Below, in pieces: positions 54,765-63,138 of a stretch of DNA of 64,000 bases; positions within the stretch are counted from its first letter, which is position 1; each line of letters begins with the position of its first letter. Position numbers and translations under genes: made by a program. This DNA is from an uncultured virus (IMG/VR IMGVR_UViG_2687453420_000003) (Duplodnaviria > Heunggongvirae > Uroviricota > Caudoviricetes): IMG/VR virus record IMGVR_UViG_2687453420_000003. One strand, given 5' to 3'. The notes beneath the pieces are model-generated. The model did not search any database. It was not told the DNA's origin and saw only the letters and a program-made list of their open reading frames with translations.

Positions 54765-55370
54765 TCATCTGATATATTCCTCTAATGATTTTGAATACTG
54801 ATGATATTTTTCTTTATCTAGTCCTATATATTTTTTAGTTTCTTCTATACTTCTGTGCCCTAATAATTCTTTAACTGCAACTATATTTTTATCACTTTCC
54901 ATGTATATTTTATATGCATAAGTCTTTCTCATACTATGTGCAGTTATATCATGTAAGTCAAAATATTCTCCTGCCTCTTTTAATATATTGCTTACTGCTT
55001 GTACTCCTATATGCTGATTAATACCTTTTCTAGATTGGAATACATATTCATAATCTTTTTTATTTTTAATCCAACCTTTTAATATTTTAGCCAGCTTAGG
55101 AATTACTTCAACTGATCTTGGTTTTTTATTTCTCTCTTTTATGTTTTTACAATTCATTTTCTTTCCTTCATAAATTGTAAATTCATTTCTTTTTAAAGCT
55201 TCTTTAATATCTCTAACTTTTAATTTAACTAAGTCACCTGCTCTATACCCTGTTGTAATCCCTAGTATAAATAACACATAATCTCTTTCATTTTTATATC
55301 TGAGATAGTCTTGTATATCCAATACTTTAGTTGTACTAGTAATTGGTTTAGCAGGCCTTTTTATCCCCAA
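54765..55370 (-). CDS. Stand-alone tyrosine recombinase (catalytic domain only, 201 aa)
   Basis: TGYRAGDL (R), EGKK (K), HSMRK (HxxR), LGH, TKKYIG (Y). Confidence 0.93.
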   Translation of the reverse strand: MGIKRPAKPITSTTKVLDIQDYLRYKNERDYVLFILGITTGYRAGDLVKLKVRDIKEALKRNEFTIYEGKKMNCKNIKERNKKPRSVEVIPKLAKILKGWIKNKKDYEYVFQSRKGINQHIGVQAVSNILKEAGEYFDLHDITAHSMRKTYAYKIYMESDKNIVAVKELLGHRSIEETKKYIGLDKEKYHQYSKSLEEYIR

Positions 55371-56544: not shown

Positions 56545-56730
56545 TTATTTTCCTCCATGATTACCACCTCTTACTTTTCTTTTTACCCTACCTAGTTTCA
56601 TCCTTTTCTTATACAAGATGTTTCTATTCTTAACTCTTTTTTTATATCTTTTCAAAGGCTTGTCTTTTTCTTTTAAATACTTTTTAATATTCTCTAATGC
56701 TCTATCTAATATTTCATCTATCCAACTCAA
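56545..56730 (-). CDS. Small basic hypothetical protein
   Basis: 61-aa ORF, translationally coupled. Confidence 0.6.
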   Translation of the reverse strand: MSWIDEILDRALENIKKYLKEKDKPLKRYKKRVKNRNILYKKRMKLGRVKRKVRGGNHGGK

Positions 56731-57440
56731 GCTATCACCTGCCTAATTCCACATATAGGAATAGGTATATATCTATTTCCCTCAATTATGTTGCAAGTAT
56801 ATCTATTATTATAAATGTGGACTACTTTTCCCTGTATAATGTCATCTTTATATTCTGTTTCAACTATATTACCTAGCTTTAAAGTTTTTCTAAGATCTTC
56901 ATTTATACTATTTGCATTTATTTTTTTGTACTTTTCTATATCTACTATCTTTATGTTGTCATATTCCAATATCCAGCCATTTTCTATTACACTTATTACT
57001 TTATTGCCCTGATTAAAAATTATATTTTCGTCTCCTGGTCTTTTTAGAGCCTGTCCTTTTATTTTCTTTATTTTTTCTTTCTGTATATTATTTATTTCTA
57101 AATCTTCTCTAAAATAAATAATCTTATCCCAAGGCAGAACACTTGATTTCTTCTTAATTACAAATTCTTCTTCACCTTTTTTATTTACATAAATTGTTTC
57201 AAATCTATCTTTATACTTAACTTCTATCCCTAAAGCTCCACCAACATATCCTATTATTCTATTTAGATTCTCATATGTTTTATATTTTGCTATTATTTTT
57301 GTTTGATCTATATTGTCTATTTTTATTTCTTTATTTTCTAATTTTATAACTGGTTTATCATTACCTTTCTTAATTGTCTTATTTATTTCCCAAATACTTA
57401 CCTGCCCATCAATCAAGACATTTTCCTGTTTTTTAGCCAC
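56727..57440 (-). CDS. Hypothetical phage protein
   Basis: 237 aa; DGQVSIW clamp-binding-like motif near the N-terminus. Confidence 0.7.
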   Translation of the reverse strand: MAKKQENVLIDGQVSIWEINKTIKKGNDKPVIKLENKEIKIDNIDQTKIIAKYKTYENLNRIIGYVGGALGIEVKYKDRFETIYVNKKGEEEFVIKKKSSVLPWDKIIYFREDLEINNIQKEKIKKIKGQALKRPGDENIIFNQGNKVISVIENGWILEYDNIKIVDIEKYKKINANSINEDLRKTLKLGNIVETEYKDDIIQGKVVHIYNNRYTCNIIEGNRYIPIPICGIRQVIA

Positions 57441-57552
57441 TTATAACACCCCTTCTTAATGTTATACGGTTCTAATATACTAGTACAGTTAAGGTGCAAG
57501 AATATGCATTTTAATCCTTACACCTATTTACTTTTATTTCTCGAATTATAAT

Positions 57553-57984
57553 TTATAATCTTCCTAATTTTTTTGTTTTTTCATATAGCTTTTGTCTATT
57601 TATAACCCGTTTTTTATATTTAGATTGCTTTTCATTCATATTATCTTTTATATAGTTGTAAAGGCTTTGTATTATATCTATAGGTACATACCCCGCAACC
57701 ATTCCATCATATAATTGTAAAAATTTATTTCTATGTTTCCAGTTATTAAAAAAGGTATCTTCTTCTAAGTCAACCCATGCATCCTTATTAAATATTGCTA
57801 CTTCCATTTCTTTATATTTATATAAATCAGTAATTGTCTCTCTTGGTGTACAATAATGAAATTTTGAAGCTTGGATAGACAACTCATATTCTCCAATTTT
57901 TATGCGTTCCATTATTCTGTTTTTTAAATGAAATGTTTTTTCAATACAATCTCCATTTAATAATTTTCTAAAATTATTATTCAT
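57553..57984 (-). CDS. Hypothetical protein (cassette cargo)
   Basis: LSIQASKFHYCTPRE...VAGYVP; aggagg RBS. Confidence 0.75.
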   Translation of the reverse strand: MNNNFRKLLNGDCIEKTFHLKNRIMERIKIGEYELSIQASKFHYCTPRETITDLYKYKEMEVAIFNKDAWVDLEEDTFFNNWKHRNKFLQLYDGMVAGYVPIDIIQSLYNYIKDNMNEKQSKYKKRVINRQKLYEKTKKLGRL

Positions 57985-58040
57985 ATTGGCCTCCTATTAT
58001 TTATTAGATTCTCTCTCATTTATTTCATTCCTGAACCTTA

Positions 58041-58265
58041 TTATTTGTATCGTGCCTGTTCTCCTTGAAGTAATATTTTATAAACATCATTAATTCTTGC
58101 TTTTTTACTCTTTCTTTGAGATGTTTCTATAAGCTGTAAAAATGTATTTTCTTCTACATTCTTAAATCTTGATTCAGTACATATACAAACGTCCGAATAT
58201 GGTTCTCCACAATGGTCTATTATTTTACAACTTCCACAATACATTCCTAATTCTCCTATTTTCAT
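58041..58265 (-). CDS. Cys-rich hypothetical protein, paralog of 59050-59259
   Basis: MKIGELGMYCGSCKIIDHCGEPYSD... Confidence 0.8.
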   Translation of the reverse strand: MKIGELGMYCGSCKIIDHCGEPYSDVCICTESRFKNVEENTFLQLIETSQRKSKKARINDVYKILLQGEQARYK

Positions 58266-58306
58266 TTCTCTAACCTCTTTATTTCATTTAATCTTTGAAT
58301 TGTGAA

Positions 58307-58460
58307 TTAATCTAAATCACATCTGTATCCACAAAAACTGCCACACTCTTTTATTGCCTTTCCATTACAACTGACCACATTCTCCACTGCAATCTTCATC
58401 TTCCCAACGTGTATCACAATATTTACATTGACATTTTTTACATTCTTCTTTATATCTCAT
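58307..58460 (-). pseudogene. Small Cys-rich ORF with 1-nt frameshift near 58375
   Basis: MRYKEECKKCQCKYCDTRWEDEDCSGEC, then alternative frame VSCNGKAIKECGSFCGYRCDLD-stop; ggagggg RBS. Confidence 0.55.
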
Positions 58461-58495
58461 TTTTCCCCCTCCTGTGCAACTAATTTTCTCTTTGC

Positions 58496-58663
58496 TTAAA
58501 TGCCTTTACAATCTGTTTCTCCATCTAATTTAAATTTTTTATAATGCCCTCTTTTACAATCCAGTTCTTCTGAATAATCAGATACATAAGAATGACCATA
58601 AAAACTTTCTTCCTCTCCAGATGTTTCTAAAATACAATATTCACACTTTTGACATTTTGGCAT
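58496..58663 (-). CDS. 55-aa hypothetical protein (not in ORF track)
   Basis: MPKCQKCEYCILETSGEEESFYGHSY...; gaggagg RBS. Confidence 0.65.
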   Translation of the reverse strand: MPKCQKCEYCILETSGEEESFYGHSYVSDYSEELDCKRGHYKKFKLDGETDCKGI

Positions 58664-58730
58664 ACTTTATTCCTCCTCAATTTTTAGTACATAATAATTT
58701 CATTTCCGAATCTAATAGTTGAATTACGTC

Positions 58731-59003
58731 CTAATTTATTGGGCTAATAGAATGTACTAAAAACAATTCTATTAAATTATTTTTTATATCCAATATGCTA
58801 ATATCTTTCTGCCTATTTACATATGTTTTCTCTTTATATTTCAAAGGCTTATTTACTATTTCTTCAATAATATGAGGTTCTTTAAAATCTATATATTGAA
58901 CAGTTATCTCTAATTCATTAGCTTTAATTATTGTTCCTGGTGTAATTTTTTCTTCATCTTTACTTTTAAAATAAACTATATCTCCGACTTGCACCCTTCT
59001 CAC
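58731..59003 (-). CDS. Hypothetical protein, KOW/SH3-like
   Basis: VQVGDIVYF...GTIIK. Confidence 0.65.
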   Translation of the reverse strand: MRRVQVGDIVYFKSKDEEKITPGTIIKANELEITVQYIDFKEPHIIEEIVNKPLKYKEKTYVNRQKDISILDIKNNLIELFLVHSISPIN

Positions 59004-59049
59004 TCCTTCACATTAATTTCAGCTCCTGCGGCTGCTCTTTGTATTGTGT

Positions 59050-59259
59050 CTATTCTCCTTGAAGCAATCTTTTATGAACATCGTTAATTCTTGCTTTTTT
59101 ACTCTTTCTTTGAGATGTTTCTATTAGCTTTAAAAATTTAGTTTCATCTACATCCTTAAACCTTTCTTCACAACATATTGCAATATCTGACCATGGCTCT
59201 CCACAATGTTCTATTAAAATACATTCTCCACAATGCATTCCTAATTCTCCTATTTTCAT
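59050..59259 (-). CDS. Cys-rich hypothetical protein, paralog of 58041-58265
   Basis: MKIGELGMHCGECILIEHCGEPWSD... Confidence 0.8.
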   Translation of the reverse strand: MKIGELGMHCGECILIEHCGEPWSDIAICCEERFKDVDETKFLKLIETSQRKSKKARINDVHKRLLQGE

Positions 59260-59317
59260 TTTTCTAACCTCTTTATTTCATTTAATACTTGTTTTAAAGT
59301 CATGCTGTGTTGATACT

Positions 59318-59590
59318 TTATCCCATATTTTTTAAAAAATTTAGTATTTCTCTTTCTCCACATTTCTTCAAACTTTCTAAATAACATTCTCCGTTCACTT
59401 CTCTCTCAATTAACTCTATATTATTAGCTAGATCCATTTCAGTATTTCCTTGAAATTCTTCTCTAATTATATATTCTTTAATTTCATCAATGATTTTTTG
59501 GCGTTCTAAAAATTCTTTTGATAATTTATTAAATTTATCTGACATATTAAAATAGTTTGATAATGTCAATTTAACTTTTAAATCAATCAT
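59318..59590 (-). CDS. Hypothetical protein
   Basis: 90-aa ORF. Confidence 0.65.
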   Translation of the reverse strand: MIDLKVKLTLSNYFNMSDKFNKLSKEFLERQKIIDEIKEYIIREEFQGNTEMDLANNIELIEREVNGECYLESLKKCGEREILNFLKNMG

Positions 59591-59606
59591 TTAATCACTT
59601 CCAATA

Positions 59607-59771
59607 TTATTTAAAATATAATTCTTTTAAATCATTTATTATTTTCTCTCTAACTCTTTCCGCCATTTTACTCTGTGGTATTTTATCATTGTTTATATAA
59701 GCTGATATAATCTCTTTTTTATCTTGTTTTACTAATTCAATTAAATAAGGTATATATTTTTGTTCTAACAC
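59607..59771 (-). CDS. 54-aa hypothetical protein (not in ORF track)
   Basis: GTG start after gagggag; MLEQKYIPYLIELVKQDKKEII... Confidence 0.65.
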   Translation of the reverse strand: MLEQKYIPYLIELVKQDKKEIISAYINNDKIPQSKMAERVREKIINDLKELYFK

Positions 59772-59824
59772 AGAATCACTCCCTCAAAATTATTTCATTC
59801 CTGGATATACTTTTGTATTCTGAT

Positions 59825-60136
59825 TTATTCTTCAATATATTCATTTCCTATTAATCCATCTTCCCAATTAGGATTAAGTGCTTTACAAGTCTCATATAAT
59901 GCTTGTAAATAATCACTTCTATCATTGAAATAAATAGCATTATTAGCTATAGCAAAAGCTTTCTCCATTCTTTCTTCCGCGTTATTCACTGATCTACATA
60001 TGAATTCAGCTTCAGCACTTCCTACATTTTTACAATAAGTAGCCCCATTTGCTCCAATAACATCATAACTTCTGATACCGTCAAATTCTGCTTTTTTACT
60101 TTCTTCATATTTCAAATGAATCATATGAAATTTCAT
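59825..60136 (-). CDS. Hypothetical protein
   Basis: Likely start MKFHMIH after aagggtgg; the ORF-track N-terminal extension runs through the repeat site. Confidence 0.7.
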   Translation of the reverse strand: MKFHMIHLKYEESKKAEFDGIRSYDVIGANGATYCKNVGSAEAEFICRSVNNAEERMEKAFAIANNAIYFNDRSDYLQALYETCKALNPNWEDGLIGNEYIEE

Positions 60137-60200
60137 TTTTACCACCCTTTCACAAATTCGCCTTAATTTCATTTCTGGATCTTATCTTTGAATTGTGACA

Positions 60201-60623
60201 CTAAAACACTACAACCATACTTGGAAATGGCGCTGAGTTTTTAGCATCTCCGAATTTTAACCTACCTTTTACAAATCTTATTTCCTTAACTTTATGATAA
60301 ATATATTCATGAAAATACTTTGTATCTGTTCTAGCTGGTATTAACATTACTACTGTTGTATTAGGTTTTAGACTTTCTTCATAACACTTTTTAACCCAAT
60401 CCTTTAAAACCCTACCATATGGAGGATTACAAAATACTTTATATCCTTGCCAATCCTGTTTTAGTCCATCTATTTCTTTGGTAAAATATTTAGAACACTT
60501 AGCATTTTCATGGGTAGCACATGGATCTAGATCAAAGTTAAACTCTTTATTTAATTTATCAAAGAAGTCTTGCGGTGTTGCCCATAAATCCGTTTCACTA
60601 CTAAACATTACCGCTGTATTCAA
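60201..60623 (-). CDS. Phage DNA N6-adenine methyltransferase (Dam-like)
   Basis: WATPQDFF, LDPCA, FCNPPY, LIPARTDT, APFPS. Confidence 0.92.
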   Translation of the reverse strand: MNTAVMFSSETDLWATPQDFFDKLNKEFNFDLDPCATHENAKCSKYFTKEIDGLKQDWQGYKVFCNPPYGRVLKDWVKKCYEESLKPNTTVVMLIPARTDTKYFHEYIYHKVKEIRFVKGRLKFGDAKNSAPFPSMVVVF

Positions 60624-60658
60624 TTTATCACCTTCTTTTCTGTCGCCTTAATTTCAAA

Positions 60659-60937
60659 TTACGAATTAATATAAAAATTAATTTTACTTTTAAATTCCCA
60701 TCTTCTTTTTAGCAACTTTCTATTGTGTTTATTTATTTCTTTTTCTAAGTCCATATTTTCTGTTTTTACTTTTGTATACAACATACCGATAAGGACTTGC
60801 ATATTGTCCAATATCTCTTCAGTAGTGTTTTGTTTATCTCCATTTATAATTGCTTCCTTAACTTCCTTAAATTCTTCCTGTAGCTTTAAGAGTTCTTCTG
60901 GTAATGTTTCTTCTTTATCTAAAATCATTAAATGCAC
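60659..60937 (-). CDS. MazG-like nucleotide pyrophosphohydrolase
   Basis: KLQEEFKEV...TEEILDNMQV; homolog of 3272-3553. Confidence 0.65.
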   Translation of the reverse strand: MHLMILDKEETLPEELLKLQEEFKEVKEAIINGDKQNTTEEILDNMQVLIGMLYTKVKTENMDLEKEINKHNRKLLKRRWEFKSKINFYINS

Positions 60938-62305: not shown

Positions 62306-63138
62306 CTACATACCCCCATTCAACATATTTAAAAATGGGTTGCTTGAATCAGTATTACTTGAATTTTGTTTTATGGATTCTTGCTTCAATGGGAATACAC
62401 CTTTCCAACTGTTCATTATTGATTGTTCTAATATTTTTATTTTATATCATCATCATTAGATAATTTATCTAGGTTTTTAAGCATTAAGTCTAATGCATTA
62501 TTTGTCATTTTAGATTTTATTAGAGTTCTCATTTTTATAAATTCTAATATAGTATTTTTTAATTCTTCATTTTCTGTATATTCATCAATTATTGTATTGT
62601 AAGTTTTCTTAGTACCTTCTTTCTTACTTCCTTTCTTTTTTTTCTTTTTCTCTAACTCTGTATCTTTCTCTATATCTAACTCTATATCTATCTCTTTCTC
62701 TAACTCTATCTCTGGTGGACGTTCGTCAGACATTTGTCCTTTTGGTAATAAATTTTGTTTTTCCGTTTCTATTTTCTTTCTATATGCTCTTTTTCTATCT
62801 CCCTCTGAACTACTCTTACCTATAAAGTTTTGTATATCTAGCATGTAAATAGCTCCATTGTCCAATATTTCTATTAATCCTAACTCTATAAATACTTTTA
62901 TAGCCTTTTCTACAATTGCAATGTTGTGCCCTGTTACTGTAGCAACCATCTTAGGGTTGTATGGAATATGTTCCTTAAACATTAATCTTCCTTCATTTTT
63001 AAGTGATTTTAAATATAGTTTCATTAATATATCTGAGTATAAATACCCATTATCCATGCTTTGTAAAATCTTTATATCTTCTGTATCATAAAAATTTTCT
63101 TTAATTCTTAGATAATAATATTTTTTATTATCACTCAA
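62306..63138 (-). CDS. Phage replisome organizer; 1-nt frameshift at ~62440
   Basis: KKYYYLRIKENFY, LMKLYLKSL; alternative frame KILEQSIMNSWKGVFPLK...NPF to stop at 62306. Confidence 0.85.

What the first reader, a model, noticed from the sequence alone, without database searches (positions are those of the whole stretch)
57530..60664. Integron-like gene-cassette array in prophage 2: small genes delimited by stop-codon-anchored inverted-arm sites
Seen (minus strand): one site family begins 0-2 nt after, or overlapping, a stop codon and is followed shortly by the next RBS. Short form, 7-8-7: tcgTAAt-ttgaaatt-aaggcga (60664-60643) and tcacaat-tcaaagat-taaatga (58305-58284). Long form, 40-42 bp: tcacaat-tcaaagat-aaga-tccagaa-atgaaatt-aaggcga (60198-60158), tcagaat-acaaaagt-ata-tccagga-atgaaata-attttga (59823-59784), acacaat-acaaagag-cagcc-gcaggag-ctgaaatt-aatgtga (59049-59008), acgtaat-tcaactat-taga-ttcggaa-atgaaatt-attatgt (58729-58689) and gcacgat-acaaataa-taagg-ttcagga-atgaaata-aatgaga (58055-58014). 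Outer arms are imperfect inverted repeats and in places co-vary (acgtaat/attatgt; tcagaat/attttga). All sites have the same orientation and the cargo has no obvious promoters. Established: tyrosine recombinase core sites are inverted arms around a 6-8-bp spacer, and integron attC sites often overlap cassette stop codons. Inference: this is a phage-borne system that captures or shuffles 1-2-gene cassettes by site-specific recombination, not the IntI/attC type (no GTTRRRY/RYYYAAC).
Basis: partly seen in the sequence, partly recalled or inferred. Interest (0 to 1): 0.85.

Follow-up and report, generated by a model that had tools for sequence, protein, structure and literature searches.

The report
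Conserved gene-junction sites in clostridial prophages
A short, one-directional DNA motif placed right after the stop codon of many small early genes in a family of Clostridium prophages marks the spots where unrelated genes have repeatedly been swapped in and out, much like the linker motifs of T4-type phages, but no enzyme that acts on it could be pinned down.

Summary
The seven sites are real, at the stated coordinates, all on the minus strand, and each starts 0-2 nt after or over a stop codon. They belong to a family found at 92 of 342 early-gene junctions, against 2 of 269 other junctions, in 27 related Clostridium (pro)phage loci. The family is almost absent from a related host genome. 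Anatomy: a 7-nt left arm (TCRYAAT), an 8-nt asymmetric core (WCAAAKAK or TTGAAATW) and, in a subset, a right arm (ATTRYGA) at exactly 8 nt. Long forms carry both cores. The left arm travels with the upstream gene, and what follows the core travels with the downstream gene, so the joints fall inside the core. Contigs of other strains show gene gain and loss bounded by S2, S3, S4, S6 and S7.

Several integron-type details fail:
- There are no attC cores.
- The arms do not co-vary beyond arm-swapped controls, and no stable fold is predicted.
- The nearby 201-aa Xer-like recombinase is common in phages without arrays and absent from two phages with sites.
- Most mosaic breakpoints in these early regions lie at junctions without a site.

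Best reading: a PeSL/'linker'-type junction element with the layout of a tyrosine-recombinase core site. The exchange mechanism is unresolved. It is a new variant of a known kind.

The parts
60643..60664 (-). S1: left arm TCGTAAT (contains the TAA stop of the MazG-like gene), core type 2 TTGAAATT, then a weak right arm AAGGCGA. It is the first joint of the array.
   Evidence: The same site type follows families 11, 28 and 33 in other loci.
60158..60198 (-). S2, long form: left arm plus core 1 (60198-60184), a linker, then core 2 ATGAAATT and AAGGCGA.
   Evidence: Homology to L123 and L001 ends here, and homology to L122 and L132 starts here. Contig joints lie at 60157, 60194 and 60197.
59784..59823 (-). 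S3, long form.
   Evidence: A contig joint lies at 59791 in core 2.
59008..59049 (-). S4, long form.
   Evidence: The 99.9%-identical block shared with L122 and L132 ends at 59036, inside core 1. Contig joints lie at 59021 and 59036.
58689..58729 (-). S5, long form. Its left arm ACGTAAT follows the same upstream gene in front of 5 different downstream genes.
58284..58305 (-). S6: left arm plus core 1 (58305-58291), followed by a core2-like stretch. There is no true right arm.
   Evidence: A contig joint lies at 58294.
58014..58055 (-). S7, long form. The TAA stop lies inside core 1.
   Evidence: A contig joint lies at 58041. Homology to five loci starts at 58050-58057.
60201..60623 (-). Cargo: Dam-type N6-adenine DNA methyltransferase.
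   Evidence: Pfam PF05869, E 2e-35. It is 82% identical in DNA to the gene of Clostridium phage phiCT19406C, which is also flanked by sites. The gene is missing, from S2 to its start codon, in a contig of run X1.
57553..60136 (-). Cargo: nine or ten small genes of unknown function. They include a pair of Cys-rich paralogues (59050-59259 and 58041-58265).
60659..60937 (-). Last conserved gene before the array (MazG-like).
56727..57440 (-). First conserved gene after the array (237 aa, unknown function, phrog_15215). It was used to fetch the related loci.
54765..55370 (-). 201-aa tyrosine recombinase with a catalytic domain only. It was considered as the agent and is not specifically linked to the sites.

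Best explanation
The sites are conserved, one-directional junction elements in the hyperplastic accessory-gene stretch between the replication genes and the late-regulatory genes. They occur in a family of Clostridium prophages of the botulinum/sporogenes/tetani type.

Each element sits between a stop codon and the next ribosome-binding site. It consists of a 7-nt left arm, an 8-nt asymmetric core and, in a subset, an inverted 7-nt right arm. Unrelated genes have repeatedly been joined inside the core. Blocks of one to a few genes, DNA methyltransferases among them, are therefore exchanged, lost, duplicated and occasionally reordered between related prophages without breaking reading frames.

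Functionally this is the Botstein 'linker' or PeSL principle.
- Shown: the anatomy, the restriction to this stretch, the orientation, and the position of the joints.
- Inferred: that the motif is kept because it serves as the crossover point.
- Not resolved: whether the exchange is made by a site-specific recombinase or by short-homology recombination.
For: - Sites occur at 92 of 342 early junctions against 2 of 269 elsewhere.
- In five (near-)complete phage records, 14 of 14 exact matches lie on one strand in a single 1-2.5 kb stretch per record, with 0 for the reversed control.
- The related host genome has 6 matches in 3.9 Mb against 4 for the control.
- Same-upstream pairs diverge at offsets 11-17 of the site in 18 of 18 pairs.
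- Same-downstream pairs stay alike back to offsets -5 to +7 in 19 of 24 pairs.
- One upstream gene with its own left arm precedes 5 different genes. One downstream leader follows 5 different upstream gene families.
- A 1137-nt block is 99.9% identical to L122 and L132, and is bounded by core 2 of S2 and core 1 of S4.
- Other strains' contigs show indel and replacement joints at S2, S3, S4, S6 and S7.
- Site junctions carry a homology breakpoint in 71 of 92 cases, against 135 of 248 without a site.
- The neighbour-switch rate is 0.71 with a site against 0.44 without.
- A right-arm-like 7-mer lies at a spacing of exactly 8 nt in 16 of 72 sites, with none at 7 or 9 and 0.74 expected per spacing.
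- PeSLs behave alike in T4-type phages (PMC2839356, sections 13 and 21 read).
Against: - Mosaic joints are common without sites: 221 of 391 breakpoints lie at site-less junctions and 71 lie inside genes.
- The statistical contrasts are modest (nominal p 0.026 and 1.6e-4), and the loci are related, so they are not independent.
- The homology shared between two short sites is only about 8-13 nt, which is little for homologous recombination.
- No phage single-strand annealing protein was seen among the 12 early proteins scanned.
- No recombinase tracks the sites.
- Tight packing against the stop codon and the ribosome-binding site would also fit an expression signal.
Confidence: 0.55

Rival explanations
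1. One reading: a true site-specific gene-cassette system. A tyrosine recombinase of phage or host (Xer-type) binds the 7-nt arms and exchanges strands at the edges of the 8-nt core. It excises cassettes as circles and re-inserts them.
For: - The layout is rigid at 7-8-7, with an asymmetric core. The right arm lies at exactly 8 nt in 16 of 72 sites.
- The crossover zone is confined to the core.
- The core varies independently of both flanks. Families 65 and 31 are joined with two different cores.
- All sites are direct repeats.
- One reordering and two within-array duplications were seen.
- Shared homology is too short for ordinary homologous recombination.
- An intact-looking Xer-like recombinase lies 2.6 kb downstream of S7.
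Against: - The 201-aa recombinase is absent from phiCT19406C and from a 98%-complete provirus that both carry sites.
- It is present at 73-82% identity in 16 loci with at least 7.5 kb of upstream DNA. Of these, 9 have no site, 6 have one and 1 has three.
- Most core-1 sites lack a right arm at the 8-nt spacing. Only 7 of 51 have one there, and 20 of 51 have one at 25-30 nt.
- Joints also occur at a second core and behind the ribosome-binding site.
- Neither circles nor excision could be examined.
Confidence: 0.25
2. The motif is mainly an expression signal on the mRNA or the DNA. Candidates are a processing or stabilising site, a translational coupling or decoupling spacer, or an operator of the stoperator kind. 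The mosaic joints fall there only because it is the sole conserved intergenic sequence.
For: - The motif is strand-specific.
- Its distance to the stop codon is near-fixed (58 of 72 sites at 0 to +2).
- In minimal forms it is followed directly by the ribosome-binding site.
- A 15-nt element is retained in otherwise tightly packed junctions.
- Some arm pairs need G-U to pair.
- phiCT19406C has a half-site followed by a 16-bp hairpin with G-U pairs, z -4.2.
Against: - No stable fold is predicted for any of the seven window sites (z -1.7 to +1.7).
- Arm pairing is not above arm-swapped controls: 16 of 90 against 12.6 +/- 2.8, with 71 of 500 shuffles reaching it.
- Rfam finds nothing.
- The motif is absent from the replication and late operons and from the rest of five phage records, unlike genome-wide stoperators.
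- Many neighbouring genes are expressed from junctions without it.
Confidence: 0.15
3. The long forms are weak sigma-A promoters. The -35-like TTCAAA lies in core 1 and a TG-extended -10-like AATTAT lies in core 2, 18 nt apart. That would make them PeSL-like promoter cassettes.
For: - Reading of S2 and of the L023 long form.
- PeSLs are promoter-containing linkers (PMC2839356, section 13).
Against: - The consensus scan calls none of the sites; the hexamers match 7-8 of 12 positions.
- The conserved TCCAGGA in the spacer is not explained.
- Short forms have no room for a promoter.
Confidence: 0.05

Closest known systems
PeSL (promoter-early stem-loop) cassettes of T4-type phages, and Botstein's 'linker' sequences
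   Same: - Both are repeated intergenic motifs running from the stop codon to the next ribosome-binding site.
- Both are concentrated in hyperplastic regions full of small genes of unknown function.
- Indel and replacement endpoints lie in the motif.
- No dedicated recombinase is known for either (PMC2839356, sections 13 and 21 read; PMC4122927, abstract read).
   Different: - The host phages here are temperate siphovirus-type prophages of Gram-positive anaerobes.
- The element is 15-42 nt long, with neither a consensus promoter nor a terminator stem-loop.
- It has a 7-8-7 core-site layout, and shared homology is far shorter than a PeSL.
- Mini-circles were shown for PeSLs and could not be tested here.
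Integron attC sites with IntI
   Same: - Both are arrays of cassettes in one orientation, without promoters by the consensus scan.
- Both have sites at or over the stop codon.
- Both have imperfect inverted arms.
- Gain and loss happen at the sites.
   Different: - There are no RYYYAAC or GTTRRRY cores.
- No folding or arm co-variation was found.
- The joint splits the site between the two neighbours, whereas an attC leaves with its own gene.
- There is no IntI: the integron-integrase model scores 24.8 bits against a cut-off of 265.
- No integrase stands at the head of the array.
Xer/dif-type core sites and Xer-dependent modules (IMEX elements, dif modules of Acinetobacter plasmids)
   Same: - Both have short inverted arms around a 6-8-bp central region where strands are exchanged.
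- Small gene modules are bounded by such sites and use a recombinase encoded elsewhere.
   Different: - This comparison is recalled, not tested. The host dif site was not available and no sequence comparison was made.
- The arms here are 7 nt, not 11.
- All sites here are direct repeats.
Stoperators of cluster A mycobacteriophages
   Same: Both are asymmetric sites of about 13-15 bp in short intergenic gaps, with one orientation relative to transcription (PMC9283540, abstract in the listing).
   Different: Stoperators are spread over the whole genome and double as the operator of the early promoter. These sites are confined to one 1-2.5 kb stretch. Association of stoperators with gene swapping is not known to me.
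Start-associated sequences (SAS/ESAS) of cluster K mycobacteriophages
   Same: Both are repeated short motifs at many gene junctions, some with inverted extensions.
   Different: SAS are tied to the start codon, whereas these sites are tied to the stop codon and lie at a variable distance from the start. I saw only the search listing of PMC3203893; the details are recalled.

Membership tests
Integron (IntI/attC) | An IntI-type integrase next to an attI site at the head of the array | tested here: not met
   The only recombinase lies downstream of the array. It scores 24.8 bits against a cut-off of 265 for the integron-integrase model. The array starts behind a MazG-like gene.
Integron (IntI/attC) | attC core sites RYYYAAC and GTTRRRY | tested here: not met
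   In 57530-60664 there are 3 and 3 matches, both strands counted. Only one position, read on both strands, lies near any of the 7 sites.
Integron (IntI/attC) | Sites that fold as imperfect hairpins, with arms that stay complementary | tested here: not met
   Fold z-scores are -1.7 to +1.7. Pairing of at least 6 of 7 occurs in 16 of 90 sites, against 12.6 +/- 2.8 in arm-swapped controls.
Integron (IntI/attC) | Cassettes in one orientation, gained and lost at the sites | tested here: met
PeSL / linker-type junction motif | A repeated intergenic motif concentrated in the hyperplastic region | tested here: met
   92 of 342 early junctions against 2 of 269 others. All 14 exact matches lie in one stretch per phage.
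PeSL / linker-type junction motif | Endpoints of insertions, deletions and replacements lie in the motif | tested here: met
   The association is not exclusive.
PeSL / linker-type junction motif | Composite of a consensus early promoter and a terminator stem-loop | tested here: not met
   No promoter call falls at a site, and only one weak hairpin lies in S4. No stable folds were found.
PeSL / linker-type junction motif | Mini-circles formed by exchange between neighbouring motifs | not testable with these tools
   No raw reads of this strain were served. Run X21 laid nothing, and X22 held only a look-alike site in another context.
Tyrosine-recombinase core site | Two inverted binding arms at a fixed spacing | tested here: inconclusive
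   A right arm lies at exactly 8 nt in 16 of 72 sites and at 27-29 nt in 16 of 72, with 0.74 expected per spacing. About half of the sites have no right arm.
Tyrosine-recombinase core site | Exchange within a 6-8-bp asymmetric central region | tested here: met
   The joint is confined to about positions 8-14 of the site. This is equally expected if the core is merely the only shared sequence.
Tyrosine-recombinase core site | A cognate recombinase that co-occurs with the sites | tested here: not met
   For the 201-aa enzyme. Other enzymes, such as the host Xer proteins or the prophage integrase, were not tested.
Stoperator-type repressor sites | Sites spread through the genome, including the early-promoter operator | tested here: not met
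   All exact matches in five (pro)phage records lie in one 1-2.5 kb stretch.

The most novel reading that the evidence does not exclude
A gene-cassette system of Gram-positive temperate phages. Promoterless 1-3-gene cassettes, which include anti-restriction methyltransferases, would be moved by true site-specific recombination at 7-8-7 core sites. The enzyme would be encoded elsewhere, for example a host Xer-type recombinase. This would be a functional counterpart of integrons in a group of bacteria where integrons are, to my knowledge, not found.
Probability: 0.25. Interest if true: 0.85.

Novelty: new variant of a known kind. Interest (0 to 1): 0.6.

Why it matters
Phage genomes are mosaics, but how unrelated genes get joined cleanly at gene borders is mostly unexplained. 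PeSLs of T4-type phages are the one well-described linker motif. Here a much shorter, differently built motif marks such joints in temperate phages of clostridia, and the crossover can be placed within a few bases. That makes the question 'site-specific enzyme or short homology?' directly testable. It also gives a handle for predicting which accessory genes (methyltransferases, possibly counter-defence genes) move between prophages of toxin-forming clostridia.

Tried and rejected
- RNA family search: nothing found.
- Single-site RNA folds: none stable.
- blastn of the array against cultured phages: only the methyltransferase gene matches.
- blastn of one long-form site against cultured phages: only chance-level hits, best E 0.01.
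- My first loose DNA pattern in IMG/VR returned mostly chance matches. Only about 8 of 120 loci held true sites.
- A de novo k-mer search found no other post-stop motif in phages with more distant copies of the recombinase.
- Language-model look-alikes of the conserved 237-aa protein: best score 0.77, which is uninformative.
- Inverted repeats around the recombinase gene gave no clear invertible switch.
- The dif-site paper (PMC3025954, passages searched) prints no clostridial dif sequence in its main text, so the Xer lead stayed untested. Its supplements are closed.
- Runs with a small share of words were not used for any claim about habitat or expression.
- Earlier findings of this scan: none on record.
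- No whole genome is held for the window.
Full report
**Observation**

Exact copies of the two half-motifs occur only between 58020 and 60197, all on the minus strand and all between genes. These are 4 of 4 exact matches of GRAATGAAATWA and 3 of 3 of CACAATWCAAAGA. With mismatches allowed, neither pattern is enriched in the window (14 against 10.4 expected; 75 against 78.7). The signal is therefore the local cluster, not the words. A two-half weight matrix finds the five long forms and nothing else in the 64 kb.

**Setting**

The genes run on the minus strand in this order:
- replisome organiser (62437-63138);
- G39P-like loader;
- a MazG-like gene (60659-60937);
- the array (60664-57553), which holds a Dam-type methyltransferase and nine or ten small genes of unknown function;
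- a conserved 237-aa gene;
- an ArpU-like late regulator;
- a Zn-ribbon gene;
- a 201-aa tyrosine recombinase (54765-55370);
- small terminase and HNH genes.

No whole genome is held for the window. The 237-aa protein fetched 21 IMG/VR loci and one contig of Clostridium botulinum ATCC 25763. Relatives of the recombinase are named from C. sporogenes and C. botulinum. The methyltransferase gene of C. tetani phage phiCT19406C is 82% identical and is itself flanked by sites.

**Anatomy, extended**

I compared 27 oriented loci, with my own ORF calls and gene families set by blastp at 35% identity or more over 60% or more of the length.
- The universal part is KWCRYAAT-WCAAAKAK, that is a 7-nt left arm plus an 8-nt core.
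- It starts 0 to +2 nt after the stop codon in 58 of 72 distinct sites. For that count, 18 of 90 post-stop candidates without a recognisable core were dropped.
- A second core, TTGAAATW, follows the same left arm at the first joints of the arrays. S1 is of this type.
- A right arm of consensus ATTRYGA, the inverse of the left arm, lies at exactly 8 nt in 16 of 72 sites, with none at 7 or 9 nt. It lies at 27-29 nt in 16 of 72. The expectation is 0.74 per spacing.
- The long forms are left arm, core 1, a 10-13-nt linker (TCCAGGA-like), core 2 and right arm.
- Many core-1 sites have no right arm, and the ribosome-binding site follows at once.

**Distribution**

- Strand bias is 45 to 3 in 21 loci.
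- Sites of any type stand at 92 of 342 junctions in the early regions and at 2 of 269 elsewhere.
- In five (near-)complete phage records, all 14 exact matches lie on the transcribed strand in one 1-2.5 kb stretch per record. The reversed control gives 0.
- The 3.9-Mb C. botulinum genome has 6 matches against 4 for the control.
- The motif is thus neither a host repeat nor a genome-wide operator.

**Joints**

- Pairs of loci with the same upstream gene but different downstream genes diverge at offsets 11-17 of the site in 18 of 18 pairs.
- Pairs with the same downstream gene but different upstream genes remain alike back to offsets -5 to +7 in 19 of 24 pairs, and to 12-28 in the other 5, which are long forms.
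- The left arm therefore travels with the upstream gene. One gene with ACGTAAT precedes 5 different genes.
- The leader travels with the downstream gene. One leader follows 5 different upstream gene families.
- The joint lies inside the core.
- The core itself can differ between otherwise identical joints (families 65 and 31).
- A 1137-nt block (window 59036-60172) is 99.9% identical to L122 and L132. It is bounded by core 2 of S2 and core 1 of S4, whereas conserved late genes of the same loci are about 93% identical.
- Contigs of other strains, laid on the array, show several joints:
  - the gene between S6 and S7 is missing (joint 58041/58294);
  - replacements lie between 58320/58998 and between 59036/60157;
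  - a deletion runs from core 2 of S4 to core 2 of S3 (59021/59791);
  - the methyltransferase gene is lost (60197/60621);
  - there is a rearranged joint (60194 to 58460).
- One family pair occurs in both orders, and two families are duplicated within an array.

**Limits of the association**

- Of 391 clustered homology breakpoints in early regions, 99 lie in site junctions, 221 in other junctions and 71 inside genes. HSPs of at least 150 nt and 85% identity were used, and loci with under 1.5 kb of early region were left out.
- 71 of 92 site junctions against 135 of 248 others carry a breakpoint (odds ratio 2.8, nominal p 1.6e-4).
- Gene families followed by a site change neighbour at a rate of 0.71 (18 families), against 0.44 (36 families), p 0.026.
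- The loci are related, so these p-values are nominal.
- Sites are favoured joints, not the only ones.
- Some joints lie behind the ribosome-binding site or in core 2, so there is no single fixed crossover position.

**Hairpin, RNA, promoter and operator readings**

- None of the seven sites folds better than shuffles (z -1.7 to +1.7).
- Rfam finds nothing.
- Left and right arms pair at 6 of 7 positions or more in 16 of 90 sites, against 12.6 +/- 2.8 after swapping arms between sites. 71 of 500 shuffles reach that value. With G-U allowed the figures are 29 against 25.0 +/- 2.9, with 46 of 500.
- The arms are therefore inverted repeats of one consensus, not co-varying partners. This speaks against a folded attC-like or RNA-hairpin requirement.
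- The consensus scan calls no promoter at any site. A weak TG-extended -10 reading of core 2 remains possible.

**The recombinase**

- It is a catalytic-domain-only, Xer-like protein. XerA and XerH are the nearest solved relatives.
- All curated models score far below their cut-offs, and the integron-integrase model scores 24.8 against 265.
- It is absent from phiCT19406C and from a 98%-complete provirus that both carry sites.
- A 37%-identical homologue stands in a phage with the same motif.
- Copies of 73-82% identity stand in 16 loci with at least 7.5 kb of upstream DNA. Of these, 9 have no site, 6 have one and 1 has three.
- No other post-stop motif replaces it there.
- It is therefore not the specific partner of the sites.
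- No single-strand annealing protein was seen among 12 early proteins scanned.

**Mechanism**

What is shown:
- a conserved, oriented junction element;
- its confinement to the hyperplastic stretch;
- gene blocks exchanged with joints inside its 8-nt core.

What is inferred: the element persists because it serves as the crossover point. This is the linker principle that Arbiol et al. documented for PeSLs (PMC2839356, sections 13 and 21; PMC4122927, abstract).

The rigid 7-8-7 layout and the very short shared homology lean towards a site-specific enzyme. The lack of any co-occurring recombinase, the many arm-less sites, the several crossover zones and the many site-less joints lean towards short-homology exchange at a conserved element.

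I put:
- 0.55 on the linker reading, with the mechanism open;
- 0.25 on a true site-specific cassette system;
- 0.15 on a pure expression signal;
- 0.05 on a promoter.

**Novelty**

My searches of the held papers found no description of such an element in clostridial or other Gram-positive phages. That covers open-access papers and preprints only. It is a new variant of a known kind: a linker motif of different build, in a different phage group, and with base-level placement of the joint.

Circles or excision could not be tested. No raw reads of this strain were served, and contigs cannot show rare forms.

Noticed in passing
window 54765-55370 (-): A 201-aa tyrosine recombinase with a catalytic domain only. 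The RxxD, HxxR and GH...Y motifs can be read in its sequence. It sits between a Zn-ribbon gene and the small terminase gene. Copies of 76-98% identity and the same length occur in prophages named from many Clostridium species. Its nearest solved relatives are XerA and XerH. Its role is unknown and does not track the junction sites.
   Followed up: partly
window 58041-58265 and 59050-59259 (-): Two paralogous small Cys-rich genes, with their leaders, are 85% identical over 254 nt (D1). This is a within-array duplication. Family 32 is likewise present twice in L132.
   Followed up: partly
window 57441-57552 (-), and the same gap in 14 loci: An intergenic stretch of about 106 nt before the 237-aa gene is strongly conserved across loci (rows 'up 9'). 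It may be the promoter or leader of the next operon, and homology to 14 or more loci starts at 57554.
   Followed up: no
L001 5450-5495 (phiCT19406C): A half-site after the methyltransferase gene is followed by a 16-bp hairpin that needs G-U pairs (-23.6 kcal/mol, z -4.2). A look-alike stretch stands at about L001 3680. It may be an RNA element or a terminator.
   Followed up: no
related loci L138 6073-6639, L125 4245-5051, window 60201-60623: Three unrelated DNA methyltransferase families (phrog_359, phrog_67, Dam PF05869) occupy positions in the variable stretch. This suggests that anti-restriction genes are typical cargo.
   Followed up: partly
window 58307-58460 (-): Two short overlapping Cys-rich reading frames lie between the 55-aa gene and S6. 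A homology breakpoint without a full site lies at 58460. It could be a broken or frameshifted small gene.
   Followed up: no
L177 7989-8870; L163, L165, L171, L174: Phages with a 75-79% identical copy of the recombinase carry a few sites with the same left arm but other cores: CTAAGA (L163, L165, L177), GCAAGA (L163, L171) and TTGAAAAT with a perfect right arm (L174).
   Followed up: partly
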